Source: Candidatus Poseidoniales archaeon (GTDB taxonomy: Archaea; Thermoplasmatota; Poseidoniia; Poseidoniales; Poseidoniaceae). Taken from it: DNA of 64,000 nt. Below are positions 26-40,500 of the stretch, piece by piece (position 1 is the stretch's first letter; each line of letters begins with the position of its first letter). The position numbers and the translations under genes are program-made. The notes below the pieces were generated by a model. It had not been told where the DNA came from, did not search any database, and saw nothing but the letters and a program-made list of their open reading frames with translations. The stretch covers positions 145 through 64,144 of the forward strand of contig QQRY01000059.1 in NCBI GenBank assembly GCA_003602575.1, read 5' to 3'.

Positions 26-3000
26 ATGCGCAGCCACATAGTAGCACTATTAATCTTGATTTTGCTAGGCCAGTCATTATCCAATCTCAATAGTAATAAT
101 CACGATATTGATTCATTAAATGATGATTTAACTGCCAAATCAACACAAAATAATATTAACACAATTGTATCGAACTCAACAAATCTGGGCGTTAATCAAT
201 CTATGAACATAGCAAGTATAGCTGGCTTAAGTGTAATAGACCTAATTATGGATGATGACAATAACATTTACATCTGTTTTCAAATGAGCAAAGGAAATTA
301 TAACTCACCTATTCAAATTGAAAATTATTCTTCAAATTCTAGTGAAGATTTCTATACATATATATTCGCTAAATTTGATTTCAACAGAAGTCTTGTTTGG
401 GCTTTCAACTCGACAAATTTAGGAAGTGATCCTAAAATGAAACTAACATCAAATCAATCCTTAATTATTGGTTCTTCGTATCGTAGCACTCCAAATACAG
501 TTTCGACGTTTTACAACCAAACTGGCACAAAGTCACTTTTTTTGGCGACTATTGACCCAAACGGAAATATGACGCGATTTGTAAAAGCTAACCCACCTTC
601 ATCAATTGGTATTGATGATTTTGCTATCGATTCAAATGGCAATATATACGTTTATGGTTATGTGGGGTGTTCATCATGTACTGCTCCAATATCCTTTGGA
701 ACAAGTACATTTTATGTTGCAGGTTCGACAGACTTCTTTGCAAAATTAAATTCAAGTGGCAATTGGGATTGGGGGATCGGTACAACAGGAAACTCTTGGG
801 CACCTAGTAATTTTTTGCTGAGTGTTGACTCAAATGATGATTTGATTATAGCAGCAGATCTCTCTCTCAAAACAGGAAATTGGGATATTAAAAATTTCCT
901 TGGGGTATCAAGAGCCAATGAACATCCTGAGCAACTTTCTGGTACCAATAATGGTTGTTTATTGATTAAGATGTATAATCACAATCGAACCATTAAATGG
1001 CACACTACAATATATGGAGAATCGGGTGCTACATTAAAATGTAATTCAATTGATGTTGACAGCCAAAATAATATTTTTATTGGTGGCTCATACAATGAAC
1101 CATTTAGAACGCACAATGGTTCTACGAGCCCTTATGGTGGGGAGGATGCATATGTCGCTAAATATACATCAAGTGGAAATTTATCTTGGGTAAATTATTT
1201 TGGAGGAACAGGAGATGACGTAATTTCATCAATCGTAGTTGGAAATAATGGATTTGTTTCTATTTGTGGTTATTCACGTAGTACTACGATGTCTGTTGAT
1301 AATGGATTTTTAACAGGAAACGTTCCAATGATATTCTTTATACAAATGGACAGTTATTCAAATTATACCACTAGAATTTCCTCTAACGGAATAGGAGATG
1401 AATTAAACTGTTTGATTGAATCAAGTACAAATGGAGAGAAAATTTTATTTTATCAATTTACTACACAAACAAGATTTTCTGATATTTCACATACAAGCAT
1501 AAAACAAACAGACCTTGCTATATTTGAGTTTTCTAGCGACTATGATAGTGATGGTGTTTCAGATTACAGGGATTATGATGATGATGATGATGGAATATTA
1601 GATACAATCGATAGATGCCAGCATGGTCAACTTGATTGGACATCAAATACTGTCACAGACCATGATGCTGACGGATGTGTGGATAAAACAGAGGATGATG
1701 ACGATGACAATGATGCTGTGAATGATCAATTGGATAATTGTTCCCTTGGTAGCGTTAATTGGATTTCAAACAATACAAGTGACATGGATAATGATGGTTG
1801 CCAAGATTCTGGTGAAGATGATGATGATGATAATGATGGTTTTATTGATTTGAATGATTTATGTCCTCGGGTTTTTGGAAATTCAACCTATTTGTCTGAA
1901 TTCGGTTGTATAGATACTGATGGCGATACAAGACCAGATATTACTGATTTCAAACCAAAAGATGCTTCTGAATGGAATGACGCCGATAATGATGGCTTTG
2001 GTGATAATGAAGACTTATATCCTTATGATTTTACACAGAACAAAGATTCTGATAATGATTCATATGGAGACAATTCCTATGGAACAGAAGGAGATTATTG
2101 TCCTCAAGTGTATGGAAACTCAACCATTGATGTTTTCGGATGCATAGATTCTGATGGTGATGGTTGGTCAAATGATGGAGATGCAGATAAAGATAATCCA
2201 ACACAATGGCAAGATCGAGACGGTGATGGATATGGAGATAATCAATCCGGAACTAATGCTGATATGTTTCCCTCAGATGGAACTCAATGGATTGATTCTG
2301 ATGGCGATGGTCATGGCGATAATCCATATGGAACACAAGGCGATTGGTTCCCTGATGACCCGACGAGATGGCGTGATTCTGACCAAGATGCTACAGCCGA
2401 TGAAGATGATGCATTTCCTAATGATGGAACGCAACAAGTCGATTCTGATGGGGATGGATACGGTGACAATATCGATGGAAATAGAGGTGATGCATTCCCC
2501 GATGACCCACTAGAATGGAAGGATTCTGACGGAGATCTTTTAGGTGATAATGCCGATATGTTCCCATATGACCCTACTCAAATTGAAGACAGAGATGGAG
2601 ACGGTATGGGTGATAATCCAATGGGAATTGGTGCTGATAAGTTCCCTGATGATGCAACTCAATGGGGAGATATAGATGGTGATGGATATGGTGATAATTC
2701 ACTAGGCAACAACCCAGATTTGTTCATCACTGATGCTACACAATGGGCTGACAGAGATGGTGATGGTTACGGGGATAATCCTCAAGGTAGGCTGTATGAT
2801 TTGTTCCCAGACAACCCGACACAATGGGAAGATGCTGATGAAGATGGACTTGGTGATAATCAATCAGGAACTGATGCTGACCCATTCCTCAACGACTTTG
2901 ATAATGATGGCTACAATGATTCAATGGACATCCTGCCCAAACTAGCAAGTCCAGGTGATCTAGACGCAGACGGATGTCTCGATGAAGTAGATGCATTCCC

Positions 3001-3649
3001 CGAAAACGGTCAAGAATGTGTTGATACAGACGGAGACGGAATAGGCAACAATGGCGATTCAGATGATGACGGCGATGGCTGGACTGATGCTGATGAAGAA
3101 AGGTTAGGAACTGATTCATTGTCTTCAACTGACACTCCTGTAGATAGTTTTGAAATTGTAATTCCAGGAACTGCAGTTGGACTTGGTGCTTGGGATTTAA
3201 TTGGAATATTTGGTGGCGTGCCATTTTTTGCTTGGATAGGTTTTGGATTCGCAACTAGAAATGGTCGCTGTGAACGATATGAAGAATTACTCAAAGAAGC
3301 TACATCAAGAGATGAATTAGAAAAAGTTGCACTACGCTGGGAATACTCGCTAATGCTCAGAATGTTAGGTCCACACCAAGGAATTAGGCTAGAGAGATTA
3401 CGTGCCGAACTAGATGACAAGTTTGAGAATGCAACCTATGATGAAACTGACATTGGTTTTGATCAAACCAGTATTGTAGAAAATGAAGGCAAAGATATTC
3501 CACCAATCAACGATTCATTTGCCGGACCAACAAAGGAAACAGCCGCAACATCAACCGATGAATCTGGCTATGAATGGTTCAAACAAGGTGAAGAGAATTG
3601 GTATCGACCTGTTGATAGTAACGATGAATGGTTCAAGTTTGAAAACTAA
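26..3649 (+). CDS. Large type-I membrane surface protein: signal peptide, repeat-rich N-terminal ectodomain, long thrombospondin type-3-like Ca-binding repeat array, one TM helix, ~150-aa cytoplasmic tail
   Basis: 1207-aa ORF. It has the hydrophobic leader MRSHIVALLILILLGQSLS and dozens of DxDxDGxGD / DxDxDGxxD motifs. The hydrophobic segment GLGAWDLIGIFGGVPFFAWIGFGF is followed by a charged tail. Confidence 0.8.
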   Translation: MRSHIVALLILILLGQSLSNLNSNNHDIDSLNDDLTAKSTQNNINTIVSNSTNLGVNQSMNIASIAGLSVIDLIMDDDNNIYICFQMSKGNYNSPIQIENYSSNSSEDFYTYIFAKFDFNRSLVWAFNSTNLGSDPKMKLTSNQSLIIGSSYRSTPNTVSTFYNQTGTKSLFLATIDPNGNMTRFVKANPPSSIGIDDFAIDSNGNIYVYGYVGCSSCTAPISFGTSTFYVAGSTDFFAKLNSSGNWDWGIGTTGNSWAPSNFLLSVDSNDDLIIAADLSLKTGNWDIKNFLGVSRANEHPEQLSGTNNGCLLIKMYNHNRTIKWHTTIYGESGATLKCNSIDVDSQNNIFIGGSYNEPFRTHNGSTSPYGGEDAYVAKYTSSGNLSWVNYFGGTGDDVISSIVVGNNGFVSICGYSRSTTMSVDNGFLTGNVPMIFFIQMDSYSNYTTRISSNGIGDELNCLIESSTNGEKILFYQFTTQTRFSDISHTSIKQTDLAIFEFSSDYDSDGVSDYRDYDDDDDGILDTIDRCQHGQLDWTSNTVTDHDADGCVDKTEDDDDDNDAVNDQLDNCSLGSVNWISNNTSDMDNDGCQDSGEDDDDDNDGFIDLNDLCPRVFGNSTYLSEFGCIDTDGDTRPDITDFKPKDASEWNDADNDGFGDNEDLYPYDFTQNKDSDNDSYGDNSYGTEGDYCPQVYGNSTIDVFGCIDSDGDGWSNDGDADKDNPTQWQDRDGDGYGDNQSGTNADMFPSDGTQWIDSDGDGHGDNPYGTQGDWFPDDPTRWRDSDQDATADEDDAFPNDGTQQVDSDGDGYGDNIDGNRGDAFPDDPLEWKDSDGDLLGDNADMFPYDPTQIEDRDGDGMGDNPMGIGADKFPDDATQWGDIDGDGYGDNSLGNNPDLFITDATQWADRDGDGYGDNPQGRLYDLFPDNPTQWEDADEDGLGDNQSGTDADPFLNDFDNDGYNDSMDILPKLASPGDLDADGCLDEVDAFPENGQECVDTDGDGIGNNGDSDDDGDGWTDADEERLGTDSLSSTDTPVDSFEIVIPGTAVGLGAWDLIGIFGGVPFFAWIGFGFATRNGRCERYEELLKEATSRDELEKVALRWEYSLMLRMLGPHQGIRLERLRAELDDKFENATYDETDIGFDQTSIVENEGKDIPPINDSFAGPTKETAATSTDESGYEWFKQGEENWYRPVDSNDEWFKFEN
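1538..3100 (+). repeat. Degenerate tandem array of Asp-rich TSP3-like calcium-binding repeats (coding)
   Basis: DSDGDGYGDN, DRDGDGYGDN and DADEDGLGDN type units recur every ~20-25 aa. Cys-containing versions (DHDADGCVD, DMDNDGCQD) occur at the start of the array. Confidence 0.8.
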
Positions 3650-6380: not shown

Positions 6381-7205
6381 TTAATCTCTTTCATGCTCGA
6401 TATCTTGAGCAAAGCCATCTCTTGAATCGCCCATTCCACCAAATAATGCTTGGGCAAATGTCAGTACATCTGCTAGTCCATCTTCTAGTTCAGAAGAAAG
6501 TGGAGTCAAACCAGGTGCCTGCGAAAATTCTTGCATCATCCTCAGTTGATTAATTGCAAATTCAGTTCTTTGCCCTCCAGCCTCATCATATAATGCCAGT
6601 TCCAATATCTCCAACCTCTCGGACCATTCCAAAATTTTAGCAAGTTCATCTTCGTCTAGTAAATCTGATTTTGATAAGAAATTCTTTGTTGGAAGTCCAA
6701 GTCTAAATTCAACAATACTTGAGAGAAGCATCTGAGAAACGAAACCAGATGGAGAACGTGAAAGCATCGGGTCAAAGAGATAGATTATTGCAGACTGATC
6801 TCTACCTAGAACTTCAATCAAATGATTACTGGCTTCTCTAAATGCAAATAATTCAACTTGACCGGGAGTATCTACTATCATAACCTCGCCAGAAAGTGCG
6901 TGTAGTTGCTCTGCAACATCGCCTGCCTGTGCTGCCAGAAGGTCAGCAGCTAGAATTTGTGCACCATTTGGACCCAAATCATACTCAGACATAACCTCGG
7001 TAAGAGAAATTAAATCTCTAACATCAAATTCTGCATCATAATGTACTCTTTCTGCTCCAGGATCGAGATTTACAGCAATTGCATCTGTTTCTAAAAATCT
7101 TGACCATCTTTGAAACGCAGTTACTAAGGATGATTTTCCAGCACCTGCGGTACCTACAACAAATAATACAGGAGGAGTCCCACTATCCATACCGACCATG
7201 TTCAA
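6381..7205 (-). CDS. GPN-loop GTPase
   Basis: P-loop GTAGAGKSS and GPN motif DLGPNGAQ. Length is typical of the PAB0955/Npa3 family. Confidence 0.85.
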   Translation of the reverse strand: MNMVGMDSGTPPVLFVVGTAGAGKSSLVTAFQRWSRFLETDAIAVNLDPGAERVHYDAEFDVRDLISLTEVMSEYDLGPNGAQILAADLLAAQAGDVAEQLHALSGEVMIVDTPGQVELFAFREASNHLIEVLGRDQSAIIYLFDPMLSRSPSGFVSQMLLSSIVEFRLGLPTKNFLSKSDLLDEDELAKILEWSERLEILELALYDEAGGQRTEFAINQLRMMQEFSQAPGLTPLSSELEDGLADVLTFAQALFGGMGDSRDGFAQDIEHERD

Positions 7206-7357
7206 TGCTCCGACTCACCATAAATCAAGTTCACCGTCAAAACATAACATTTTACTCGCAAAACGCATATATTTATTCAAACCTTTGAGCATAATGGTTA
7301 TGTGCTATGCATCAATGGGCGAACTGGCGCATTGTGTTTATGCGCGGAGGAATTGAA

Positions 7358-10300
7358 ATGTCTGATGAGAAACCACCTATGCCCGAGATGCCACCTATGC
7401 CACCTATGAATGCACCACCTGCACCTCCAGGTATGCCTCCTATGGACGCTCCACCTGCACCTCCGGGTATGCCTCCTATGCCAGGTATGCCGCCAATGGA
7501 TGCACCACCGACTCCTCCAGGTATGCCACCTATGGACGCTCCACCGGCTCCTCCAGGTATGCCACCTATGGACGCTCCACCTGCACCACCTATGCCAGGT
7601 ATGCCACCTATGGATGCTCCACCTGCACCACCTATGCCAGGTATGCCACCTATGGATGCTCCACCCGCACCTCCTATGCCAGAAATGCCACCTATGGATG
7701 CACCTCCTGCACCTCCTATGCCAGAAATGCCACCAATGGATGCACCTCCTGCACCACCGGGTATGCCACCGATGGACGCTCCACCTGCACCTCCTATGCC
7801 AGAAATGCCACCTATGGATGCACCTCCTGCACCACCGGAAATGCCACCTATGGACGCTCCACCTGCACCACCTATGCCAGGTATGCCACCTATGGATGCT
7901 CCACCTGCGCCTCCTATGCCAGAAATGCCACCGATGGACGCTCCACCTGCACCACCGGAAATGCCACCTATGGACGCACCACCAGCCCCTCCAGGTATGC
8001 CACCTATGGACGCTCCACCTGCACCACCGGACATGCCGCCTATGGATGCACCCCCTGCTCCCCCTGAGATGGAGTCAAACGACGAAACGGATGTTTCTGA
8101 AGAATCAGATATTCTAACCGATCTCTCTGCACCACCGGCTCCACCTATGCCAGAAATGCCTCCTATGGATGCACCACCGGCCCCACCTATGCCACCTATG
8201 GATGCACTTCCGGCTGCTGATGCACTATTAGCGCCTCCAGCACCTCCTGTGGAAGAGACATCTGCTGCTGATTTACTACTAGCACCTCCTGCGCCTCCAA
8301 GCATGCCACCTATGGACGCTCCACCTGCACCTCCTGCGGCTGATGCACTTCTTTCTCCACCTCTACCACCTGCTACAGTTGAAGGAGATTCTGAAGAAAC
8401 TGAAGATATGACTCCTGATGAACAAATTGGAGAACAAGCTGGAGCAACTATCCGTTCTAGAGCTGAAGTTGATGAAGTCCCTGGAGATAAACTCGAAGGT
8501 ACATTGCATGAAGTTGAAAAAGCGACTCTCAACAGTGACGGAGAAATAATTAAGCAAACCGTAAAAGGTACTCTAACAATCAATAACCCTTCCAGTGATG
8601 ATAGAATTTACGATATTGACGTAATCCTTGACAATGCAGATTCAACTGATATTGGTGGCGACCATGTTTCAGTAGATGAATTAGAAGCTGGTAAGAAATA
8701 CAGTATGAAGTATAAGGTTGATGGAATGAGGATGCTTGTTCTTCGTGAACACCTTGACACCAATCCTGCTCGCTCTCAGGAGCGTTCATTATCTGTTGCC
8801 AATGGACCTGATGGTGGACCATTAGCCCTTGAGATTGAAGTTGAAAACGTTTCAAATGTTACTATTGATAATGTAGAAGTTACAAGACATATACCGAGTG
8901 AAATGTCTTTTGAGAATTCTGGCGACGCAGTAATCGAAGATGGAAACATGACATGGTCTGTTGGAAGTCTATCTGCTGGAGAAAAGAAGTCTCTCTCTAT
9001 TGAAGGTAAAATTACAGTTACTGGAACCAAGACAATCAATGCTGGCTCCGCTTCTGCCACCTATACCGCAAATTCTACACTATCAAGTTTGAATTTCAGA
9101 GAGTTGGATGCATTCTGTCGAGGGTTTACTTACATGAGAGTTCGTGAGGATGAAAGACCAGATAACTGGCTCTGCAAGACGATTTTCGAAAACCGTTCAT
9201 CCTTTGCAGTGGACTTGGTTAAACTTCAAGTTACTATGAAAGGAAGTAATGAATTATTATTCGATATATCTGATGTTGATGACGATGTACTACCTAACGG
9301 AAAGTGGGAATCTGATGAGAGAACTGTTGAAGCAACTTCTGAACCTGATTTCACTTATGATCTTTCATATACAATTCTACCTAGGGCAGTGCGCTCAACA
9401 GAAGGTTCGATAAGTCTAGAAGAGAGTTCATTCGACATTCTAGAAGCAGATGTCGAAAAGAAGTATTCAACTACTGGACTGCGTTCATACCGAAGTCAAA
9501 AAGTCGGAGCTTCTTTGAAGTTGACAAATTCTGGTTCTTCAACCATCAATTTGATGAGAATTACTGATGATGTCCCGGGACTATTTGACGCTCCAGACCT
9601 TGAATCAATGAGAATCAGTATTGGTGGTAAGGAACTTGAACCAGAGCAGTATAAGGCTGAAGTTAGCTCTGGAATCACTCTCGAGAAAGAACATCGTTCA
9701 CCTGATGGAGATGGACATACTCTAACCCTAACTATCGGTACAAGAGGACCTCTAGGATTAACACCTGGAGACGACATTTCCATAGAATATGATTTGATTG
9801 CACCAGATCCTTCTCCAGAAAATAAGATAGTAGTTGCTCCACTTCGTACCGAGTTCAGTGCAGAAAGATTTGGTCCGGTCTGTTCAAGAGATTGTAGCAA
9901 TCCTCCATCTCTGAAAGTAATTCACCACAGAAGAGACTTCTCTGCAGGTAAGCAAGCAATACCTCTCGGCGGCAAGGGAAGATACGAAGTTCTAATCCTG
10001 TTCGAGAATAACGGAGATACTGCATTACAAGATGTTTACATCAATGATGTGATTCCTTCAAACTTTGAAATCAAAGATTGGCATATCAAAGGAACCGGTG
10101 GAAAGCGCGATGATTGCGAAATGACCAGTGAAGATGGCGATGATGGTGCTCATGTCAGTTGGATGATCCCAATTGTCGGTAAGAATGAGAGATTAGAAGT
10201 ATCTTTTGAAATAAAAGGTTCCGGAGAAGTCGACGCTGAAGCACTAAATAGGTTCCACGGAGTCCATTTCGGCGATGAGGTTGAAACTGAAGATGTTCCA

Positions 10301-10753
10301 AGTCTCGAGGAAGAATCGGTTGAAGAGGCTGTTGAAGAAGAATCAACAGAAGCTGAAGCCTCTGATGAAGAAACACCAAAGGTCACTTGGAGAGAAGATG
10401 TATTGCTAAGAGTCATGAAGGCTAGCGGCATTGAAGACAGAGATGCATTCATTGCTCATGCTGTAAACTTCGACCATGATGATAATGGCTACTTGAAGAA
10501 GGCTGAACTTGAAGACGCTGCTAAAGCTTGGAATGAAGCTAACTCTGAAGAATCTTCAGAAACAGAAGAAGGTGAGGAAGTGTCTGAAGAATCCACTGAA
10601 GAGGAAGCTTCTAGTGAATCAGAGGAAGCAACAAATGATGATTCAGCCGATGAAGAATCTGGAGAATCAGAAGAGAAGCAATGTCCTATTTGTTCTATAA
10701 TGTGTCCTAAAGACGCAAAAACTTGCTCGGCTTGTTCATTTGCCTTTATTTGA
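7358..10753 (+). CDS. Novel multidomain protein: Met/Pro-rich tandem repeats, DUF11/CARDB-like beta-sandwich segments, EF-hand loop, acidic linker, C-terminal zinc ribbon
   Basis: Continuous ORF (opens at 7307). The ATG at 7358 has GGAGG 8 nt upstream. No signal peptide or TM segment is visible. EF-hand loop DHDDNGYLKKAE at 10472-10507. C-terminal CPICSIMCPKDAKTCSAC. Confidence 0.8.
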   Translation: MSDEKPPMPEMPPMPPMNAPPAPPGMPPMDAPPAPPGMPPMPGMPPMDAPPTPPGMPPMDAPPAPPGMPPMDAPPAPPMPGMPPMDAPPAPPMPGMPPMDAPPAPPMPEMPPMDAPPAPPMPEMPPMDAPPAPPGMPPMDAPPAPPMPEMPPMDAPPAPPEMPPMDAPPAPPMPGMPPMDAPPAPPMPEMPPMDAPPAPPEMPPMDAPPAPPGMPPMDAPPAPPDMPPMDAPPAPPEMESNDETDVSEESDILTDLSAPPAPPMPEMPPMDAPPAPPMPPMDALPAADALLAPPAPPVEETSAADLLLAPPAPPSMPPMDAPPAPPAADALLSPPLPPATVEGDSEETEDMTPDEQIGEQAGATIRSRAEVDEVPGDKLEGTLHEVEKATLNSDGEIIKQTVKGTLTINNPSSDDRIYDIDVILDNADSTDIGGDHVSVDELEAGKKYSMKYKVDGMRMLVLREHLDTNPARSQERSLSVANGPDGGPLALEIEVENVSNVTIDNVEVTRHIPSEMSFENSGDAVIEDGNMTWSVGSLSAGEKKSLSIEGKITVTGTKTINAGSASATYTANSTLSSLNFRELDAFCRGFTYMRVREDERPDNWLCKTIFENRSSFAVDLVKLQVTMKGSNELLFDISDVDDDVLPNGKWESDERTVEATSEPDFTYDLSYTILPRAVRSTEGSISLEESSFDILEADVEKKYSTTGLRSYRSQKVGASLKLTNSGSSTINLMRITDDVPGLFDAPDLESMRISIGGKELEPEQYKAEVSSGITLEKEHRSPDGDGHTLTLTIGTRGPLGLTPGDDISIEYDLIAPDPSPENKIVVAPLRTEFSAERFGPVCSRDCSNPPSLKVIHHRRDFSAGKQAIPLGGKGRYEVLILFENNGDTALQDVYINDVIPSNFEIKDWHIKGTGGKRDDCEMTSEDGDDGAHVSWMIPIVGKNERLEVSFEIKGSGEVDAEALNRFHGVHFGDEVETEDVPSLEEESVEEAVEEESTEAEASDEETPKVTWREDVLLRVMKASGIEDRDAFIAHAVNFDHDDNGYLKKAELEDAAKAWNEANSEESSETEEGEEVSEESTEEEASSESEEATNDDSADEESGESEEKQCPICSIMCPKDAKTCSACSFAFI
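7379..8068 (+). repeat. Coding tandem repeat: 16-17 copies of MPPMDAPPAPP with 1-3 aa spacers (36/42-nt period); 3 more copies at 8119-8340
   Basis: Read directly from the translation and the DNA periodicity. Copies differ mainly at synonymous third-codon positions. Confidence 0.95.
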
Positions 10754-10765
10754 TTAGTATTAAAA

Positions 10766-11188
10766 TCAAATTTCTGGAAGAACCCATTGAGGCCAGAACT
10801 CATTTTCTGAAGAGGAACTGACTATCACCAGTGTAGGTCTATTTAATTCTGATAAAAACTGATCAAGTGGTTTTGGAGTAGATGGAGGAATTACTCCATC
10901 TCTCAAATCGACTGCAAGCCAAGCGCCCGGATATTGCTCCATCCATGCATCTAGTTCAGCAACTATACCTTGTGGTGGAACTCCTTGGCGAACACTAGCG
11001 ATATAATCCCAGCCACTAGGGCAACGCCTTGCTTCATCTGTCCACATAAATATTCGAGGTTGTTGCTTTAGCATAGCAATTTGTTCAATAGCTTCTAGTT
11101 CAGTTACACAAACCGGTTGAAAAGGCATTGGCATAGGTAGAGGATAACGCCAATTTGAATCTACTTGAAGCGGTTCTTTGCGTCGCAT
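10766..11188 (-). CDS. Hypothetical protein
   Basis: 140-aa ORF in a tight gene context. No recognisable motif. Confidence 0.45.
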   Translation of the reverse strand: MRRKEPLQVDSNWRYPLPMPMPFQPVCVTELEAIEQIAMLKQQPRIFMWTDEARRCPSGWDYIASVRQGVPPQGIVAELDAWMEQYPGAWLAVDLRDGVIPPSTPKPLDQFLSELNRPTLVIVSSSSENEFWPQWVLPEI

Positions 11189-20299: not shown

Positions 20300-21604
20300 T
20301 CAAAATTCTTCATCATCAGAATCCATCAAATAGTCATCTTCATCATATCCCATCATTTCATCTTGACTGACTGGACGATACAAAGGATTGTTCTTCATTG
20401 CCTCTTCTTTGAGAGATTCATTCTTTTTGATATTGCGTTCTTCTTCTGTTAGAGGCTTCTTGGATGCTGCATTAACATTAACTTCAGTTGTTAATTTTTC
20501 TAATCCTAACTGGATACCATGCGCCTCAGCAACCTCTCTGTCCAACTTAGGGACTGAAGGCGAAGGCGCCAAGAACTTGTTCTTTTGAGATTCCGAACCC
20601 TCAAGAGATTCATCAATAGTCATCTCTTTCAATTCTTTACGTAGTTTAGGATCTACCTCACTCTTCAGCAAGTCAGTAGCTACGCCACGTAAGACCTCTT
20701 CAGAATATAATTTAGGAAGCATTTCGATACATGCTCGACGAATATTGATATCTTTCGATGAAGCACTTTGAAGAATTAATTCTCTCGCCCTTCCACTGTC
20801 CTTATCCATACCTTGAATGGCTTTTACAGCACTCAATCTAACCTTAGGGTCTGAGTCAATAATGGCTCTTTCAGAAAAGATAGTAGCAAGTCTTGTTTCA
20901 TTTCTTGCTAGGGACGGCAGGGTTTTGGCAGCATTTCGGCGAACTTCGACATCTTCATCATCCAAAGCCCAAGATATAAGATCCCAAGTCACTGAACCAC
21001 CCTTGGATAACAGTTTCCTCAATAGTTTAGCAGCTTTCCTTCGATAGATAGGGTCTTCTTCAAGAAGAAGCGTATCGATGTGTTCACAAGCAACTGAAGG
21101 CCATGTTTCGCAGAGGGAATTAAGTCCTTTCCAAGCAGCATCCATTCTGCTTTTATTGTATGAACGTAATTCATTTTGTAGAATTACTTGAACGCCAGAC
21201 GGGAATACTGGTGCTGAGAGCGAAAGACATTTGCTCGCTGCTTGTCTAACATTTACATCAGAATCGTCTAATAATACAGAAAGCCAATCAAATAACTCAT
21301 CAGATTTTTGTGTTGCCACCTCTGGAAGAGCCTTCAATCCTGCCTCCCTAATTTCAGGATCATCGCTTTCTAGAGCCAATAATAGTGTCTCATGAGCCTT
21401 CATGGCATTCCTACCTTTACCCTTAATCCGGGTCAAAGCAATGATTCCTTCGGGTTTGAATAATACTAAATCTTTACCTTTCCAACTTACATTAACTGAT
21501 ACGATTTCTCCTCTAGATAGAGGGATTATGTCTTGTTCATTTATCGCCATCCAAGGACCTGATTCAGTTTCCACTACATGATTTAGATTTTTAGAACCAC
21601 CCAT
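20300..21604 (-). CDS. HEAT-repeat (PBS-lyase-type) protein with acidic C-terminus
   Basis: Repeated D(P/V)xVRxxAaxaL units: DPEIREAGLKAL, DVNVRQAASKCL, DVEVRRNAAKTL, DPKVRLSAVKAI. Confidence 0.7.
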   Translation of the reverse strand: MGGSKNLNHVVETESGPWMAINEQDIIPLSRGEIVSVNVSWKGKDLVLFKPEGIIALTRIKGKGRNAMKAHETLLLALESDDPEIREAGLKALPEVATQKSDELFDWLSVLLDDSDVNVRQAASKCLSLSAPVFPSGVQVILQNELRSYNKSRMDAAWKGLNSLCETWPSVACEHIDTLLLEEDPIYRRKAAKLLRKLLSKGGSVTWDLISWALDDEDVEVRRNAAKTLPSLARNETRLATIFSERAIIDSDPKVRLSAVKAIQGMDKDSGRARELILQSASSKDINIRRACIEMLPKLYSEEVLRGVATDLLKSEVDPKLRKELKEMTIDESLEGSESQKNKFLAPSPSVPKLDREVAEAHGIQLGLEKLTTEVNVNAASKKPLTEEERNIKKNESLKEEAMKNNPLYRPVSQDEMMGYDEDDYLMDSDDEEF

Positions 21605-37567: not shown

Positions 37568-40500
37568 TCACTGATAGGGATTTTCACCTGGTGAATTTGC
37601 ATGTTGTTGTGAAGCATAAGCAGCCGCTTGAGCTTGGTTGAGCCTAGGTAATGACTTTTGGTTTTGAGGAATATTTCTAGGGTTTTGTGGCTTACGCAGT
37701 CCAAAAATAAGGAGACCTATCAGTGCGACAGTGAATATAAAAATTATAACCAGAAGAATCGGATTAATCTCACTAAATCCTCCTAGAAGTCCACCTGAAG
37801 ATTCTTCCTCAACATAGAAGGTGTCTGTCTGAGCAGTCGGGCCATTAATGATTACAAACTCAATCCACATTGTACCTTCTCTGTCGGGGCTCCACTGATG
37901 TGAAAATATTCCAGTCCCACCCGATTGTATTTCGATTTCTTGTGCATGAATCCTAGTTCTTGCACCATTGCTTTCCACTCTCTCTACAATAAGTTGAGCA
38001 AAACCAGAAGCTTCACCTGAATTTTTAATCAATACTGCCAGTTCTACATTTTCGCCTACTGAGATGTCTCGTGATGGTGAAATCTCTGGTTCTTGGAATA
38101 CGAACTCTGGAACTTGCTGCTCTAATTGCCAAATACTCAAAGGTGCATCAATTGCATTGAATTCTGAACTTATATCCTGTCCAGACATATCCTTCCCAGT
38201 AACCCAAATTCGAAGCTCTAATGCTTGATTTCGTTCTTCTTCAAGAATTGCATCTTGTAAGTTTAGTGAAGCAAATAATGGAATTTCTTGCCCATATGGT
38301 TTACCACCTAATAATTCAAGGTTAGATGAACCATTGACTACACTATTAGTCAACATACCAAATCCGGATGGATGAACTTCCCAGTTAAGTTGTAGTGAGT
38401 CAACATCTAAATAATCAGATTCAGAAATTAATAGTTCAATTTCAAGTTCAGACCAATCGGATTCATAAATTAACTCATTGACTGCAGGATGATTAATTTT
38501 AACCATCTCTGGAGGAGAATCATCAATGACAAACCACATTAGAGGGTTAACTGGTTGTTTAATCGATGCACCATTAGGAGAGTTACGAAGAGACACCTCG
38601 AAATAATAAGAATTCGTAATCAGAGGAGATATGATAGTACCGTTAAAAGAACCATTAACGAAATCTACTTGTGCTTGGTTTCCACCAATTTCAAACAATA
38701 AATCCAGTGATTGGTTGACACTTCTACCAGTCATCGACCAAACTATCTCGCCCACGACATTCACATCTTCACGTGGTTGTACCCAGTGAGCATCGCCGGA
38801 TAGCAACTGATTATTTACTGTAAATTCTAAAGATGATTTGTCTATTGACATCTCACCCGAGAATCTCCAATCCAAATCATATAACTCCAAGAGGGTCGAT
38901 TGACCGTTCAAATCTGAAATCATTATGCTAGGTCTTCGATAGATACTGTCATCTGGATCAAAGCCCCATTGTAATTTGAAATCAATAATAAATTTACCAT
39001 TTGATGCAAATATATCATCTCCTGAATCACTAACTATTCTACAACTCTCGATGCTTATGTAAAGTGTTGATGCTGTACAGACATTGCCGTCTCGGTCCCA
39101 AATGATTGTAGAATCATCAGGTTGATTAGATGATAAATCGAATTCAATATGATTGATATCTGTTATTCCATTCTTATCCCAAATCGGGATTTCTAAATTT
39201 ATCATTTCACCTGGATGTAGCCATGTATCAGGCCCGAGGCCCCAAGTCAATGGGTCATAGCCTAATTGTGGTGAACCGTCGTTGCTAATCTGAAGGTGGT
39301 ACAATGGAGATGTAGAATTACCAGAATTCGAAAGTAAATTACCTGCTGAATCTGCAATTTCTAGCCAACCGATGGAATATGAGCCATCATTTGCTTGAGA
39401 TGTATCCAAATCGAATCCATAATTTCCTTGTAACAATGTCAAATCATTTGGTTGTATAAGATCACTGACTTGTACTTCTTCAATCTGCATCAAATTATCA
39501 TTATTAGAGTCATGCTCCCAAGAATTCCAGAAATTAATTTTTGCATGTGTAGGTAAAACCGGTCGGTCTGAAATGGTAAATTCTAATTGAGTTGAAGGAG
39601 ATGCTTCAACATGGTCGTATTCATCTATATTCATGTACAATAATTCTGGCGAAATGGAATCAAAACCGAAATTCGCTGAACTAGGTACCTGATAAGATAC
39701 AGCCTGACCTTGGAGAGGCATTAGTTCTAATTCGACCAAAACATTACTTTCATCAGATGGAACAACCCAAGGAATCGAAACGATTCCATCATTGATAATT
39801 GTGGATGTAGAATATTCATTACCTTCAATCAATAATCTAACCAATACTTGGCCAGTCCTAGGCGATGACATCTCGCTACCTTCAAAACCTAATTCTGCAA
39901 TAACAGTGACCGGCTCACCAGATTTTAGATATGGATAATCATTATCAGAATTTATTCCATTTAGTCCTTCAACATACCAATCGTTCAGAGAAATATCATT
40001 CTCAACTCCATTTGAGTTACCCAGTCCAAACAATTTGCTAACAGGAAGCATAGGTCCGCTGGATGATACCAAATTTGCAGATACCACTAGAGACTCTTCA
40101 TCATCCCACTGAATAGGGAACTTGAATCTGTGATTAAATTGAAGAATTGTCCCACTTTCTACCATTGAAATACTTCCACTTTGGCCTAAATCGCTCCACA
40201 TAAGTCCAACACCTGATTGAATACAAGAAGTAATTCCATTGCCGTATAGAGGCATTGACAAAATAGGGCATCTAATTTGACTACTATGGTCTTGTCCTAC
40301 CAAATTTAAATCAATCAACCAAGAATTAGAACGAGAATAATCTCCAGGGTTAGTAATTCCAATTCCCGAAAAGTCGAAGGTACTAACCACATCTATCCAA
40401 TCTACTGATGGAGTGAAAGTATCTGTGACGTTAACGACCTCTAGAGATACTGGGATAACAGATGCTTGTGAAGTGATTCCATTTACTGTTAGAACAATGG

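What the first reader, a model, noticed from the sequence alone, without database searches (positions are those of the whole stretch)
7379..8340. MPPMDAPPAPP tandem array is conserved at the protein level, not the DNA level
Sixteen consecutive MPPMDAPPAPP cores (plus one MNAPPAPP variant) are separated by G, E, D, MPG or MPE spacers, giving 36/42-nt periods. Three more copies follow an acidic spacer. Copies differ mostly at synonymous positions (gat/gac, gct/gca, cct/cca/ccg), which argues for selection on the peptide rather than recent slippage. Two hypotheses are testable. (a) The units are polyproline-II ligands, reminiscent of formin FH1 GMPPPPP tracts, for a proline-recognition module. 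(b) The roughly 40 MxxM / MxM motifs (MPPM, MPGM, MPEM) act as Mets-type Cu(I)/Ag(I) ligands, as in Ctr1, PcoA or CopB.
Basis: partly seen in the sequence, partly recalled or inferred. Interest (0 to 1): 0.65.

Follow-up and report, generated by a model that had tools for sequence, protein, structure and literature searches.

The report
Proline-methionine repeat arm on archaeal adaptor-like protein
The repeat is real and selected at the peptide level: it is a disordered, proline-rich arm of about 20 docking motifs at the start of a cytoplasmic protein of Marine Group II archaea, and the body of that protein contains the mu-homology domain used by eukaryotic vesicle-coat adaptors.

Summary
Window 7397-8065 encodes 17 head-to-tail MPPM[D/N]APP[A/T]PP units, and three more follow an acidic spacer. 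Between units dN/dS is 0.011 and pS is 0.52. The 17 identical peptides are written in 16 different DNA versions.

The array is the N-terminus of a 1131-aa gene (7358-10753, +) with no signal peptide or membrane segment. The gene is conserved, with its neighbours, across Poseidoniales (Marine Group II archaea). Every orthologue with a complete N-terminus has a proline-rich array of this kind, with 0-17 copies of the strict [D/E/N]APPxPP motif.

The main new result concerns the protein body. It is homologous to Asgard proteins that hit Pfam Adap_comp_sub. An AlphaFold model of aa 355-720 (pLDDT 87) matches mu-homology domains of AP1-4 and delta-COP in 49 of the top 50 Foldseek hits. Further beta-sandwiches, an EF-hand and a Zn ribbon follow.

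Reading (a), a polyproline-II ligand array, is favoured, but no partner was identified. Reading (b), Mets-type Cu(I) binding, is disfavoured. The protein looks cytoplasmic. Deep relatives keep the G[M/L/F]DAPPPPPP repeats but have no MxxM pairs. There are no His or Cys residues in the arm and no copper genes nearby.

The parts
7358..10753 (+). Whole gene, 1131 codons plus stop. The ORF is open from 7307, but the likely start is the ATG at 7358 (MSDEKPPMP...).
   Evidence: ORF list. GGAGG at 7346-7350 lies 7 nt upstream of ATG 7358. Orthologues share the start M[S/T][D/E]EKPPMP. There is no hydrophobic segment: the maximum 19-residue Kyte-Doolittle mean is 0.7.
7358..7396 (+). Conserved N-terminal cap MSDEKPPMPEMPP, which leads into the array.
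   Evidence: Nearly the same cap is present in full-length orthologues.
7397..8065 (+). Main tandem array: 17 units MPPM[D/N]APP[A/T]PP (33 nt each) with 1- or 3-residue spacers (G, E, D, MPG, MPE), giving periods of 36/42 nt.
   Evidence: dN/dS is 0.011 and pS is 0.52. GC is 60% against 39% for the window. AlphaFold2 pLDDT is 31-41 (10-residue block means) for the part of the arm that was modelled.
8066..8128 (+). Acidic spacer EMESNDETDVSEESDILTDLS between the two motif blocks.
   Evidence: An acidic spacer sits at the equivalent place in orthologues.
8129..8374 (+). Second motif block: two exact and one degenerate MPPMDAPPAPP units, interleaved with three AAD[A/L]LL[A/S]PP[A/L]PP motifs (8213-8248, 8264-8299, 8336-8371).
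   Evidence: The D-x-L-[L/M]...PPAPP motif class recurs in all lineages, as ADALLAPPAPP, ADPLMDPLAAPPAPP or GLDLLAPAPP.
8471..9202 (+). Mu-homology domain (about aa 372-615; boundaries approximate).
   Evidence: AlphaFold2 model of aa 355-720: mean pLDDT 87.3, pTM 0.78. In Foldseek against the PDB, 49 of the top 50 hits are muHDs of AP1-4 mu subunits and delta-COP, with E 3e-9 to 2e-7 and target-normalised TM 0.34-0.66. BLASTP to Sigynarchaeota P0273 gives E 3e-51. P0273 hits PF00928 above the gathering score. The profile of distant relatives hits AP2 mu2 at E 4.7e-6. The Pfam DUF11 hit (aa 490-567) lies inside this domain.
9203..10252 (+). Further beta-sandwich (Ig-like) domains, about three.
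   Evidence: Strand patterns in both AlphaFold2 models. Weak DUF7507 and TIGR01451 hits. Foldseek with the whole model finds tandem-Ig proteins.
10379..10555 (+). Helical EF-hand-like domain. The canonical 12-residue Ca2+ loop DHDDNGYLKKAE lies at 10472-10507.
   Evidence: The loop matches DxDxNGxLxxxE by inspection. It is nearly invariant in 60 orthologues. Three helices are modelled with pLDDT of about 90. Hits to calmodulin (E 0.06) and EF-hand_7 (E 0.13) are weak.
10682..10735 (+). C-terminal Cys4 zinc ribbon CPICS...CSAC, preceded by an acidic linker (10556-10681).
   Evidence: The four Cys are nearly invariant in orthologues. Relatives give weak Zn_Ribbon_1 and DZR hits.

Best explanation
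The array encodes a disordered, strongly acidic, polyproline-II-prone N-terminal arm of about 340 residues. The arm carries two classes of short linear motif in many copies.
- Class 1, about 20 copies: PP[G/E]-hydrophobic-(PP-hydrophobic)-[D/E]-A-P-P-A-P-P, written here as [G/E/MPE/MPG]MPPMDAPPAPP.
- Class 2, 3 copies: D-x-L-L-x-P-P-x-P-P.

The arm is attached to a soluble, most likely cytoplasmic scaffold. The scaffold consists of a mu-homology domain, about three further Ig-like beta-sandwiches, one EF-hand Ca2+ site and a Zn ribbon.

The most likely mechanism is multivalent recruitment. Each unit is a low-affinity docking site for a proline-recognition surface on a partner that has not been identified. 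That partner could be another protein, or the folded body of other copies of the same protein. Many copies in a row would give avidity and reach, as in the proline-rich arms of eukaryotic endocytic adaptors and formin FH1 regions.

Shown here: the repeat, the selection on the peptide, its conservation across Poseidoniales, its predicted disorder, and the domain content of the body. Inferred: cytoplasmic location, polyproline-II conformation, ligand function and multivalency. Unknown: the partner and the cellular process.
For: Peptide-level selection:
- dN/dS between units is 0.011 and pS is 0.52, with no adjacency effect.
- The 17 identical peptides are encoded by 16 DNA versions.
- Codon scrambling reaches 76% of the random expectation.

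Motif order, not just composition, is conserved:
- Among 575 [D/E]APPxPP instances in 186 distinct N-terminal regions, x is A in 546. The preceding residue is M in 484, L in 39, V in 7, I in 3 and F in 2. The following two residues are [G/E][M/L] in 441.
- A proline-rich motif array is present in every orthologue with a complete N-terminus: Poseidoniaceae, Thalassarchaeaceae and deep 'marine group II/III' clones. The arm is 169-423 aa long with 8-34 PPxPP.
- Between the window and a 93%-identical long-read genome (L006), the arrays differ only by whole-unit in-frame gains and losses and by spacer swaps.
- An independent assembly of the near-identical strain has the same flanks.

Disorder: pLDDT is 31-41 (10-residue block means) for the part of the arm that was modelled.

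Adaptor-like context: muHD by fold and by transitive sequence homology.

Cytoplasmic indicators: no signal peptide or membrane segment; Cys4 ribbon and EF-hand loop.
Against: - No partner was found.
- No proline-recognition domain (SH3, WW, GYF, EVH1, profilin) was detected among the roughly 47 window proteins scanned. This covers only 64 kb of the genome.
- AlphaFold2 did not dock the three modelled units or the D-x-L-L motifs onto the protein's own folded domains. Binding in cis is therefore not supported.
- The motif fits no eukaryotic ligand class cleanly (see the membership tests).
- Met is kept at 84% of the hydrophobic positions in surface-ocean lineages. A purely hydrophobic contact does not fully explain this.
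- Cytoplasmic location and polyproline-II conformation are predictions, not measurements.
- Three of 83 species-representative loci have no conserved start in frame with the array (L003, L028, L053; L003 shows a visible frame shift in translation), and L052 is also frame-shifted. I could not tell whether these are assembly errors or real.
Confidence: 0.55

Rival explanations
1. Composition-driven spacer or condensate former. The arm has no dedicated binding partner. It acts as a stiff, acidic polyproline-II rod or entropic bristle that spaces the folded body from something else. Alternatively it drives self-association or phase separation through weak Met/Pro contacts.
For: - The composition is extreme: P 44%, M 16%, A 16%, and one K or R in 340 residues.
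- Arm length varies widely between species, 169-423 aa.
- The unit sequence drifts between lineages: MPPMDAPPAPP, MPPMPEAPPAPP, GMDAPPPPPP.
- No partner was found.
Against: - Residue order is conserved far beyond composition. The [D/E]APPAPP[G/E]-hydrophobic motif is kept in hundreds of instances.
- dN/dS between units is 0.011.
- A second, distinct motif class (D-x-L-L...PPAPP) and a conserved acidic spacer keep a fixed order along the arm in all lineages.
Confidence: 0.25
2. Mets-type soft-metal site. The 32 MxxM pairs bind Cu(I) or Ag(I) through thioethers, as in Ctr1, PcoA, CopB and CusF-type proteins, so that the arm buffers or senses copper.
For: - There are 54 Met and 32 MxxM in 340 residues.
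- Asp lies next to the Met pairs.
- Met is retained at 84% of the hydrophobic positions across surface-ocean Poseidoniales.
- These organisms live in an oxic photic zone, where copper stress is plausible (general knowledge).
Against: - The protein is predicted to be cytoplasmic, whereas known Mets motifs work in oxidising extracytoplasmic compartments (established knowledge).
- Deep orthologues P0330, P0347 and P0367 keep 7 DAPPxPP repeats with Met at 2-3% and zero MxxM.
- Met is replaced by L, V, I or F at the motif position.
- There are no His or Cys in the arm and no MxM.
- No copper-handling gene was found in the window or in the conserved neighbourhood.
Confidence: 0.08
3. Surface adhesin or S-layer-associated protein whose proline-rich segment is a wall-spanning stalk, as in many bacterial DUF11, CARDB and pilin-like surface proteins.
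For: - DUF11 and TIGR01451 hits.
- Foldseek with the whole model returns integrin legs, pilins and adhesins.
- A CARDB protein is encoded about 3 kb downstream.
Against: - The window protein has no signal peptide, membrane anchor or sorting signal, and the orthologues share its hydrophilic M[S/T][D/E]EKPPMP start.
- It has a Cys4 Zn ribbon and an EF-hand.
- The best-modelled region is specifically a muHD, a cytosolic fold.
- Its Asgard homologues also lack signal peptides.
Confidence: 0.05
4. Functionless, slippage-prone low-complexity DNA that happens to lie in an open frame.
For: - Copy number differs between species.
- The array breaks short-read assemblies: 51 of 83 loci end at it.
- A few MAGs show frame shifts.
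Against: - Units are near-saturated at synonymous sites, with almost no replacement changes.
- All good assemblies are in frame, and differences between them are whole units.
- The array is universal in the order.
Confidence: 0.02

Closest known systems
Muniscins (FCHo1/2, SGIP1, yeast Syp1) and stonins: eukaryotic endocytic adaptors
   Same: A long disordered, proline-rich or motif-rich region is combined with a mu-homology domain in one soluble cytosolic polypeptide. The arm carries many short linear motifs for multivalent, low-affinity recruitment. The muHD fold was tested here. The architecture of muniscins and stonins is taken from established knowledge and from the titles and abstracts listed.
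   Different: - Domain order differs. Here the arm is N-terminal and the muHD is followed by about three extra Ig-like domains, an EF-hand and a Zn ribbon. In muniscins the muHD is C-terminal, after an F-BAR or membrane-binding module.
- No F-BAR domain or stonin-homology domain is present.
- The motifs differ ([D/E]APPAPP[G/E]-hydrophobic, not DPF, NPF or WxxF).
- The host is a euryarchaeon with no known endomembranes.
AP-complex mu subunits and delta-COP (Pfam PF00928 Adap_comp_sub), and their Asgard homologues reported by Eme et al. 2023 (PMC10307638)
   Same: - The two-subdomain beta-sandwich muHD fold.
- Clear sequence homology to Asgard proteins that pass the PF00928 threshold.
- The profile of distant relatives finds AP2 mu2 as the best PDB match.
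   Different: - There is no N-terminal longin domain.
- The window protein itself does not reach any PF00928 score.
- No other AP or COPI subunit was found nearby, apart from a HEAT-repeat protein with a sub-threshold Adaptin_N hit about 10 kb away.
- The Asgard relatives have a helical N-terminal domain of about 100 aa in place of the proline-rich arm.
Formin FH1 and Ena/VASP/WASP-type polyproline tracts (profilin and EVH1 ligands)
   Same: Tandem proline-rich units are preceded by a hydrophobic or Gly-Met residue and repeated many times for avidity. Deep relatives even have G[M/L/F]DAPPPPPP(P) runs.
   Different: - There is no FH2, WH2 or EVH2 domain.
- In the window the proline runs are broken as PPxPP, and no PPPP occurs.
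- No profilin or actin gene was seen in the window.
GYF-domain ligands (PPG-hydrophobic; PMC10187677) and the PGM (Pro-Gly-Met) motifs of spliceosomal proteins
   Same: APPAPPGMPP contains PPG-hydrophobic. The deep relatives have PPPPPPG[M/L/F].
   Different: Gly is required by GYF domains (PMC10187677). Here the position is E or D in 4 of 10 direct junctions. Across the family, EM (244) outnumbers GM (139). GYF domains are not known in archaea (own knowledge).
Mets motifs of copper transporters and resistance proteins (Ctr1, PcoA, CopB, CusF)
   Same: A high density of MxxM, 32 in the arm.
   Different: See the rival explanation. The compartment is predicted to be cytoplasmic, the Met pairs are lost in deep orthologues, there is no MxM and no His, and there is no copper gene context.

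Membership tests
Mu-homology domain (Pfam PF00928 Adap_comp_sub) | Fold of about 250-280 residues made of two beta-sandwich subdomains, as in AP mu subunits and delta-COP | tested here: met
   AlphaFold2 model of aa 355-720 has pLDDT 87.3 and pTM 0.78. In Foldseek against the PDB, 49 of the top 50 hits are muHDs, with E 3e-9 to 2e-7, 230-260 aligned columns in most hits and target-normalised TM up to 0.66.
Mu-homology domain (Pfam PF00928 Adap_comp_sub) | Sequence match to the family profile at or above Pfam's gathering score | tested here: inconclusive
   The window protein gives no PF00928 hit even at E <= 1, and the MGII-only profile does not find mu subunits in the PDB. Its homologue P0273 (BLASTP E 3e-51) scores 35.1 bits against a threshold of 31.6. 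The profile of distant relatives finds AP2 mu2 at E 4.7e-6. Membership therefore rests on transitive homology plus fold.
AP or COPI medium subunit (mu or delta) | N-terminal longin domain and assembly with large (adaptin) and small (sigma) subunits | tested here: not met
   The N-terminus is a disordered proline-rich arm with no longin hit. No sigma or adaptin subunit was found among the window proteins scanned. The protein is not an AP mu subunit.
AP mu subunit cargo recognition | Conserved YxxPhi-binding pocket | not tested
   Residue-level superposition on mu2 was not done.
Muniscin (FCHo/SGIP1/Syp1) | N-terminal F-BAR or membrane-binding module, disordered proline-rich linker, C-terminal muHD | tested here: not met
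   A proline-rich disordered region and a muHD are present, but there is no F-BAR and the order is different (arm, muHD, Ig x3, EF-hand, Zn ribbon).
Formin FH1 | Polyproline tracts directly upstream of an FH2 domain; profilin binding | tested here: not met
   There is no FH2 hit. Profilin binding cannot be tested with these tools.
Mets-motif copper site | Clustered MxxM or MxM motifs | tested here: met
   32 MxxM and 0 MxM in aa 1-340.
Mets-motif copper site | Extracytoplasmic or periplasmic location, or part of a copper transporter or oxidase | tested here: not met
   No signal peptide or membrane segment. A Zn ribbon and an EF-hand are present. There is no copper gene in the window. Location is a prediction only.
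Mets-motif copper site | Met ligands conserved in orthologues | tested here: not met
   Deep orthologues have 2-3% Met and no MxxM while keeping the DAPPxPP repeats. M is replaced by L, V, I or F at the motif position.
Mets-motif copper site | Cu(I) or Ag(I) binding | not testable with these tools
   Needs ITC or a competition assay with synthetic peptides.
SH3 class I/II ligand | PxxP core with a flanking Arg or Lys | tested here: not met
   One K or R in the 340-residue arm; 167 K+R in 33,563 residues of family arms.
GYF ligand | PPG-hydrophobic with an obligatory Gly | tested here: not met
   6 PPG[MLIFV] against 4 PP[E/D][MLIFV] in the window. Family-wide, EM 244 against GM 139. The Gly requirement is from PMC10187677.
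EVH1 class I ligand | [F/L/W/Y]PPPP | tested here: not met
   No PPPP in the window arm. Deep relatives have hydrophobic-DAPPPPPP, which is close but not identical.
EF-hand | Canonical 12-residue loop D-x-[D/N]-x-[D/N/S]-G-x-[I/L/V]-x-x-x-E between two helices | tested here: met
   DHDDNGYLKKAE at aa 1039-1050. Flanking helices have pLDDT of about 90. The loop is nearly invariant. Profile hits are only weak: EF-hand_7 E 0.13, calmodulin E 0.06. Ca2+ binding was not tested.

The most novel reading that the evidence does not exclude
Poseidoniales are abundant planktonic euryarchaea and are not Asgard archaea. In this reading they universally encode a working relative of the eukaryotic coat-adaptor mu-homology domain, fused to a multivalent polyproline recruitment arm, a Ca2+-binding EF-hand and a Zn ribbon. 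The protein would be a Ca2+-responsive cytoplasmic adaptor or condensate scaffold that gathers partners through about 20 [D/E]APPAPP[G/E]-hydrophobic sites. If so, the logic of a folded cargo domain plus a motif-rich disordered arm, typical of endocytic adaptors, would predate or exist outside the Asgard-eukaryote lineage. It would also imply an archaeal proline-recognition module that has not yet been described.
Probability: 0.3. Interest if true: 0.85.

Novelty: new variant of a known kind. Interest (0 to 1): 0.7.

Why it matters
Proline-rich tandem motif arrays and mu-homology domains are hallmarks of eukaryotic membrane-traffic and cytoskeleton adaptors. Until now the muHD has been reported outside eukaryotes only as a Pfam domain hit in Asgard archaea (PMC10307638). 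Here a clear homologue sits in a housekeeping neighbourhood of every Poseidoniales genome examined. Databases annotate it only as a DUF11 or 'uncharacterized repeat protein', and it carries a repeat arm under very strong peptide-level selection.

This gives a concrete, testable entry point into three questions. What does a muHD do in a cell without known endomembranes? Do archaea outside Asgard use polyproline-based multivalent recruitment? Did the muHD arise from prokaryotic DUF11-type Ig domains? The DUF11 hit lies inside the muHD.

There is also a practical consequence. The array breaks most short-read assemblies of these genomes at this locus, so the gene is truncated in most database entries.

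Tried and rejected
- Foldseek with the first, whole-length model (aa 231-1131, pLDDT 63) returned only generic tandem-Ig proteins such as integrin legs and pilins. It was uninformative. Modelling aa 355-720 alone with a deeper MGII plus Asgard alignment resolved this.
- Neither the window protein on its own nor the MGII-only profile finds mu subunits in PDB sequences. The profile finds only weak calmodulin hits.
- The search for related loci with the very divergent alignment A2 failed because it had no conserved stretch. With A4 it returned only Poseidoniales among the 80 best, so the taxonomic range of the intermediate relatives remains poorly defined. Cluster look-ups named only Lokiarchaeota/Harpocratesius and Thalassarchaeaceae.
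- Literature searches for MGII plus proline-rich, Asgard plus mu homology, Adap_comp_sub, muniscin plus archaea, and Poseidoniales plus eukaryotic signature protein found nothing on this protein.
- The conserved 140-aa Trp-rich neighbour (10766-11188, minus strand) was considered as a possible proline-binding partner.
- There is no paralogue of the body in the window and no other proline-rich ORF there.
- Asgard gene neighbourhoods show Arf/Ras-like GTPases within 4-7 kb in two of three loci but no conserved operon. Such GTPases are very common in Asgard genomes, so this is not used as evidence.
- The formin FH1, SH3, GYF and EVH1 ligand classes were each considered and fail a defining feature (see the membership tests).
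Full report
**Observation.** The + strand between 7397 and 8065 encodes 17 head-to-tail units MPPM[D/N]APP[A/T]PP. Fifteen are exact, one has N and one has T. The spacers are G, E, D, MPG or MPE, with one GMPPMPG, which gives periods of 36 and 42 nt. After an acidic spacer (aa 237-257) come two more exact units and one degenerate unit. They are interleaved with three AAD[A/L]LL[A/S]PP[A/L]PP motifs. The first 340 residues are 44% Pro, 16% Met and 16% Ala. They contain 44 Asp+Glu, one Lys/Arg, and no His or Cys. There are 32 MxxM motifs and no MxM.

**Selection on the peptide.** The 17 identical-peptide cores are written in 16 DNA versions. Nei-Gojobori counting between the 17 tandem units gives pS = 0.52, pN = 0.0095 and dN/dS = 0.011. 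Adjacent units are no more alike than distant ones. The codon mismatch per unit pair is 4.16, against 5.45 expected for random draws from the window's codon usage.

**The gene.** The array is the N-terminus of a 1131-codon gene. The ORF is open from 7307. The likely start is ATG 7358, which has a GGAGG 7 nt upstream and the start sequence M[S/T][D/E]EKPPMP shared by orthologues. The stop is at 10753. The protein has no hydrophobic segment; the maximum 19-residue hydropathy is 0.7. Pfam finds only DUF11 and a weak DUF7507 hit.

The window is archaeal, with an archaeal RNase P RNA. It belongs to Marine Group II (Poseidoniales). The closest genome record is a Poseidoniaceae MGIIa long-read MAG.

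**Conservation.** A search with the non-repeat 792 residues finds hundreds of orthologues at 64-100% identity. All of those whose N-terminus is complete carry arrays of the same kind. In 83 Poseidoniales loci, 80 of them GTDB species representatives:
- 51 contigs end in or just before the array;
- 6 have N-gaps inside it;
- 23 have an intact ORF from the conserved start;
- 3 have no start in frame, and L003 among them shows a visible frame shift in translation.

L052, a long-read assembly, is also frame-shifted near its start. Assembly error cannot be told apart from real change in these cases.

Intact arms are 169-423 aa long and contain 8-34 PPxPP. The unit varies by lineage:
- [G/E/MPE]MPPMDAPPAPP in the window's clade;
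- EMPPMPPMDAPPAPP in other Poseidoniaceae;
- GMPAMPPMPEAPPAPP elsewhere;
- G[M/L/F]DAPPPPPP(P) in deep 'marine group II/III' relatives.

Across 575 instances the core [D/E]-A-P-P-A-P-P followed by [G/E]-[M/L] is what stays constant. A second motif class (ADALLAPPAPP, ADPLMDPLAAPPAPP or GLDLLAPAPP) always follows, after an acidic spacer.

Against a genome that is 93% identical in the body (L006), the main array has 16 rather than 17 units. The differences are whole-unit in-frame indels and spacer swaps. A near-identical strain from another sample has the same flanks around a scaffold gap.

Gene order is conserved across MGIIa and MGIIb: UbiA, ornithine carbamoyltransferase, GPN-loop GTPase (divergent), this gene, a 140-aa ORF (convergent), an EMC3/TMCO1-like insertase, cytidylate kinase, Cbf5, a CARDB protein.

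**What the body is.** An exhaustive representative search finds 554 relatives. Among them are 600-800-aa proteins at 22-29% identity over about 580 residues, with E values of 1e-22 to 1e-53. A profile of these retrieves proteins from Sigyn-, Hel- and Lokiarchaeota that carry precomputed Pfam PF00928 (Adap_comp_sub), the mu-homology domain of adaptor-complex medium subunits.

Rescanning confirms this. P0273 scores 35.1 bits (E 1.2e-8), above the gathering score of 31.6, over profile positions 9-234 of 259. BLASTP of the window body against P0273 gives E 3e-51 over 619 residues. The profile of distant relatives, searched against all PDB sequences, returns AP2 mu2 as the best match (E 4.7e-6), then delta-COP at E 0.058.

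The window protein alone and the MGII-only profile do not reach mu subunits. I therefore tested the fold. An AlphaFold2 model of aa 355-720, built with an MGII plus Asgard alignment, has mean pLDDT 87.3 and pTM 0.78. In Foldseek against the PDB, 49 of the 50 best hits are mu-homology domains (AP2 mu2, AP1 mu1, AP3 mu3A, AP4 mu4, delta-COP). E values are 3e-9 to 2e-7, most hits align over about 230-260 columns, and TM normalised by target is 0.34-0.66.

The longer, lower-confidence model (aa 231-1131) shows:
- the arm as disordered (10-residue pLDDT block means of 31-41);
- about five beta-sandwiches;
- a three-helix EF-hand-like module with pLDDT of about 90;
- a terminal ribbon.

The EF loop DHDDNGYLKKAE is canonical and nearly invariant, as are the four Cys of the ribbon.

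Eme et al. [quoted passage not shown] Makarova et al. 2024 described adaptin-appendage-like Ig domains, some with Zn ribbons, in euryarchaeal ESCRT loci (PMC11188069). I found nothing on this Poseidoniales family or its arm.

**How it most likely works.** The arm is best read as a multivalent array of short linear motifs, presented in polyproline-II conformation from a soluble muHD scaffold. I put this at about 0.55.
- Shown: the repeat, the selection, the conservation of motif order, the predicted disorder, and the domain content.
- Inferred: cytoplasmic location, polyproline-II conformation, ligand function and avidity.
- Unknown: the partner.

AlphaFold2 did not dock the three modelled units onto the protein's own domains. 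No proline-recognition domain was seen among the window's proteins.

The motif fits no eukaryotic ligand class cleanly:
- there are no basic residues, as SH3 ligands need;
- Gly is not obligatory, as it is for GYF ligands;
- there is no PPPP in the window for EVH1 or profilin-type runs, although deep relatives have such runs;
- there is no FH2 domain.

**Rivals.**
- *Spacer or condensate role driven by composition (0.25).* This is not excluded. It is weakened by the conservation of residue order and by the fixed two-block layout of the arm.
- *Mets-type copper reading (0.08).* The MxxM density favours it. Against it are the predicted compartment, the loss of the Met pairs in deep orthologues that keep the proline core, the M-to-L/V/I/F replacements, the absence of His and MxM, and the absence of any copper gene context.
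- *Surface adhesin with a proline-rich stalk (0.05).* This is contradicted by the absence of any export signal and by the Zn ribbon, EF-hand and muHD.
- *Functionless slippage (0.02).* The substitution pattern contradicts it.

**Comparison with what is known.** In function and architecture the closest analogues are the muniscins and stonins, which combine a motif-rich disordered region with a muHD. The protein is not a member of those families, nor of the AP/COPI medium subunits. It has no F-BAR, stonin-homology or longin domain, and the domain order differs. Membership of the muHD superfamily is supported by fold and by transitive sequence homology, but not by a direct profile hit.

I rate the finding a new variant of a known kind. 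It is a novel proline-rich motif array on a muHD protein in a non-Asgard archaeal order.

**Caveats.**
- All structural statements are predictions.
- Copy numbers from short-read MAGs are unreliable, because the array breaks assemblies.
- The literature library is incomplete.
- The taxonomic identity of many intermediate relatives is unknown.

Noticed in passing
window 10766-11188 (-): A 140-aa ORF with six Trp residues and no Pfam or PDB sequence match. It lies tail-to-tail 12 nt from the muHD gene. A 139-140-aa ORF sits at the same place in the MGII loci L001, L003, L004 and L005. It is a speculative candidate for a proline-binding partner.
   Followed up: partly
window 20300-21604 (-): A 434-aa HEAT-repeat protein (HEAT_2 E 1.8e-20) with a sub-threshold Adaptin_N hit (E 7.8e-5, 21.9 bits against a gathering score of 37). 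It lies about 10 kb from the muHD gene. It may be a generic HEAT protein.
   Followed up: no
window 6381-7205 (-): A GPN-loop GTPase (ATP_bind_1, E 5e-51) is transcribed divergently from the muHD gene. This pairing is conserved in all MGII loci inspected (L001, L003, L004).
   Followed up: partly
L007, L008, L010, L011, L013-L015, L017, L018 and others; L004, L019, L020: In 51 of 83 Poseidoniales loci the contig ends in or just before the repeat array, and 6 more have N-gaps inside it. The array systematically breaks short-read assemblies, so most database entries for this protein are N-terminally truncated and start at an internal Met of the repeat.
   Followed up: yes
L003 7673-8300; L052; L053: The arrays are out of frame with the body in three assemblies. 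L003 and probably L052 are long-read or very long contigs. I could not tell whether these are indel errors in C-rich DNA or real pseudogenisation.
   Followed up: partly
Asgard homologues P0148, P0273 and others; L086, L087, L088: The Asgard relatives replace the proline-rich arm with a helical N-terminal domain of about 100 aa. P0148 has a non-significant IMD/I-BAR hit there (E 0.09). Weak Alpha_adaptinC2 hits (E 0.01-0.05) fall on the last beta-sandwich. A second paralogue lies 4-6 kb away in L086 and L088, and an Arf/Ras-like GTPase gene lies within about 5 kb in L086 and L087.
   Followed up: partly
P0136 cluster (P0374, P0375, P0381): Thalassarchaeaceae (MGIIb) genomes also encode a 687-aa paralogue, 33% identical, with a Zn ribbon but without the proline-rich arm. 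No paralogue is present in this window.
   Followed up: partly
window 8825-9058 (aa 490-567): The only significant Pfam hit of the protein, DUF11 (named CLIPPER in newer Pfam), lies inside the predicted muHD, in its second beta-sandwich. The same overlap is seen in the Asgard homologue P0273. This hints at a link between prokaryotic DUF11 Ig-like domains and the muHD.
   Followed up: no
window 7397-8374: The arm contains about 149 Pro, mostly as PP pairs in contexts (APP, PPG, PPE, PPD) that in bacteria and eukaryotes stall ribosomes unless EF-P or eIF5A is present (own knowledge; PMC4218817 was listed). Translation of the arm probably depends strongly on aIF5A.
   Followed up: no
window 37568-42538 (-) and 26-3649 (+): A 1656-aa ORF with no Pfam hit at all, and a 1207-aa ORF with only an SBBP beta-propeller repeat hit. 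Both are large uncharacterised proteins.
   Followed up: no
window 7307-7357: The 17 codons upstream of the likely start (MHQWANWRIVFMRGGIE) are included in several database gene calls and look semi-conserved (MHQWRNCRIDFLRGGIE, MQKWRSYRIVIVRGGIE). This is more likely a conserved leader and Shine-Dalgarno region than coding sequence.
   Followed up: no
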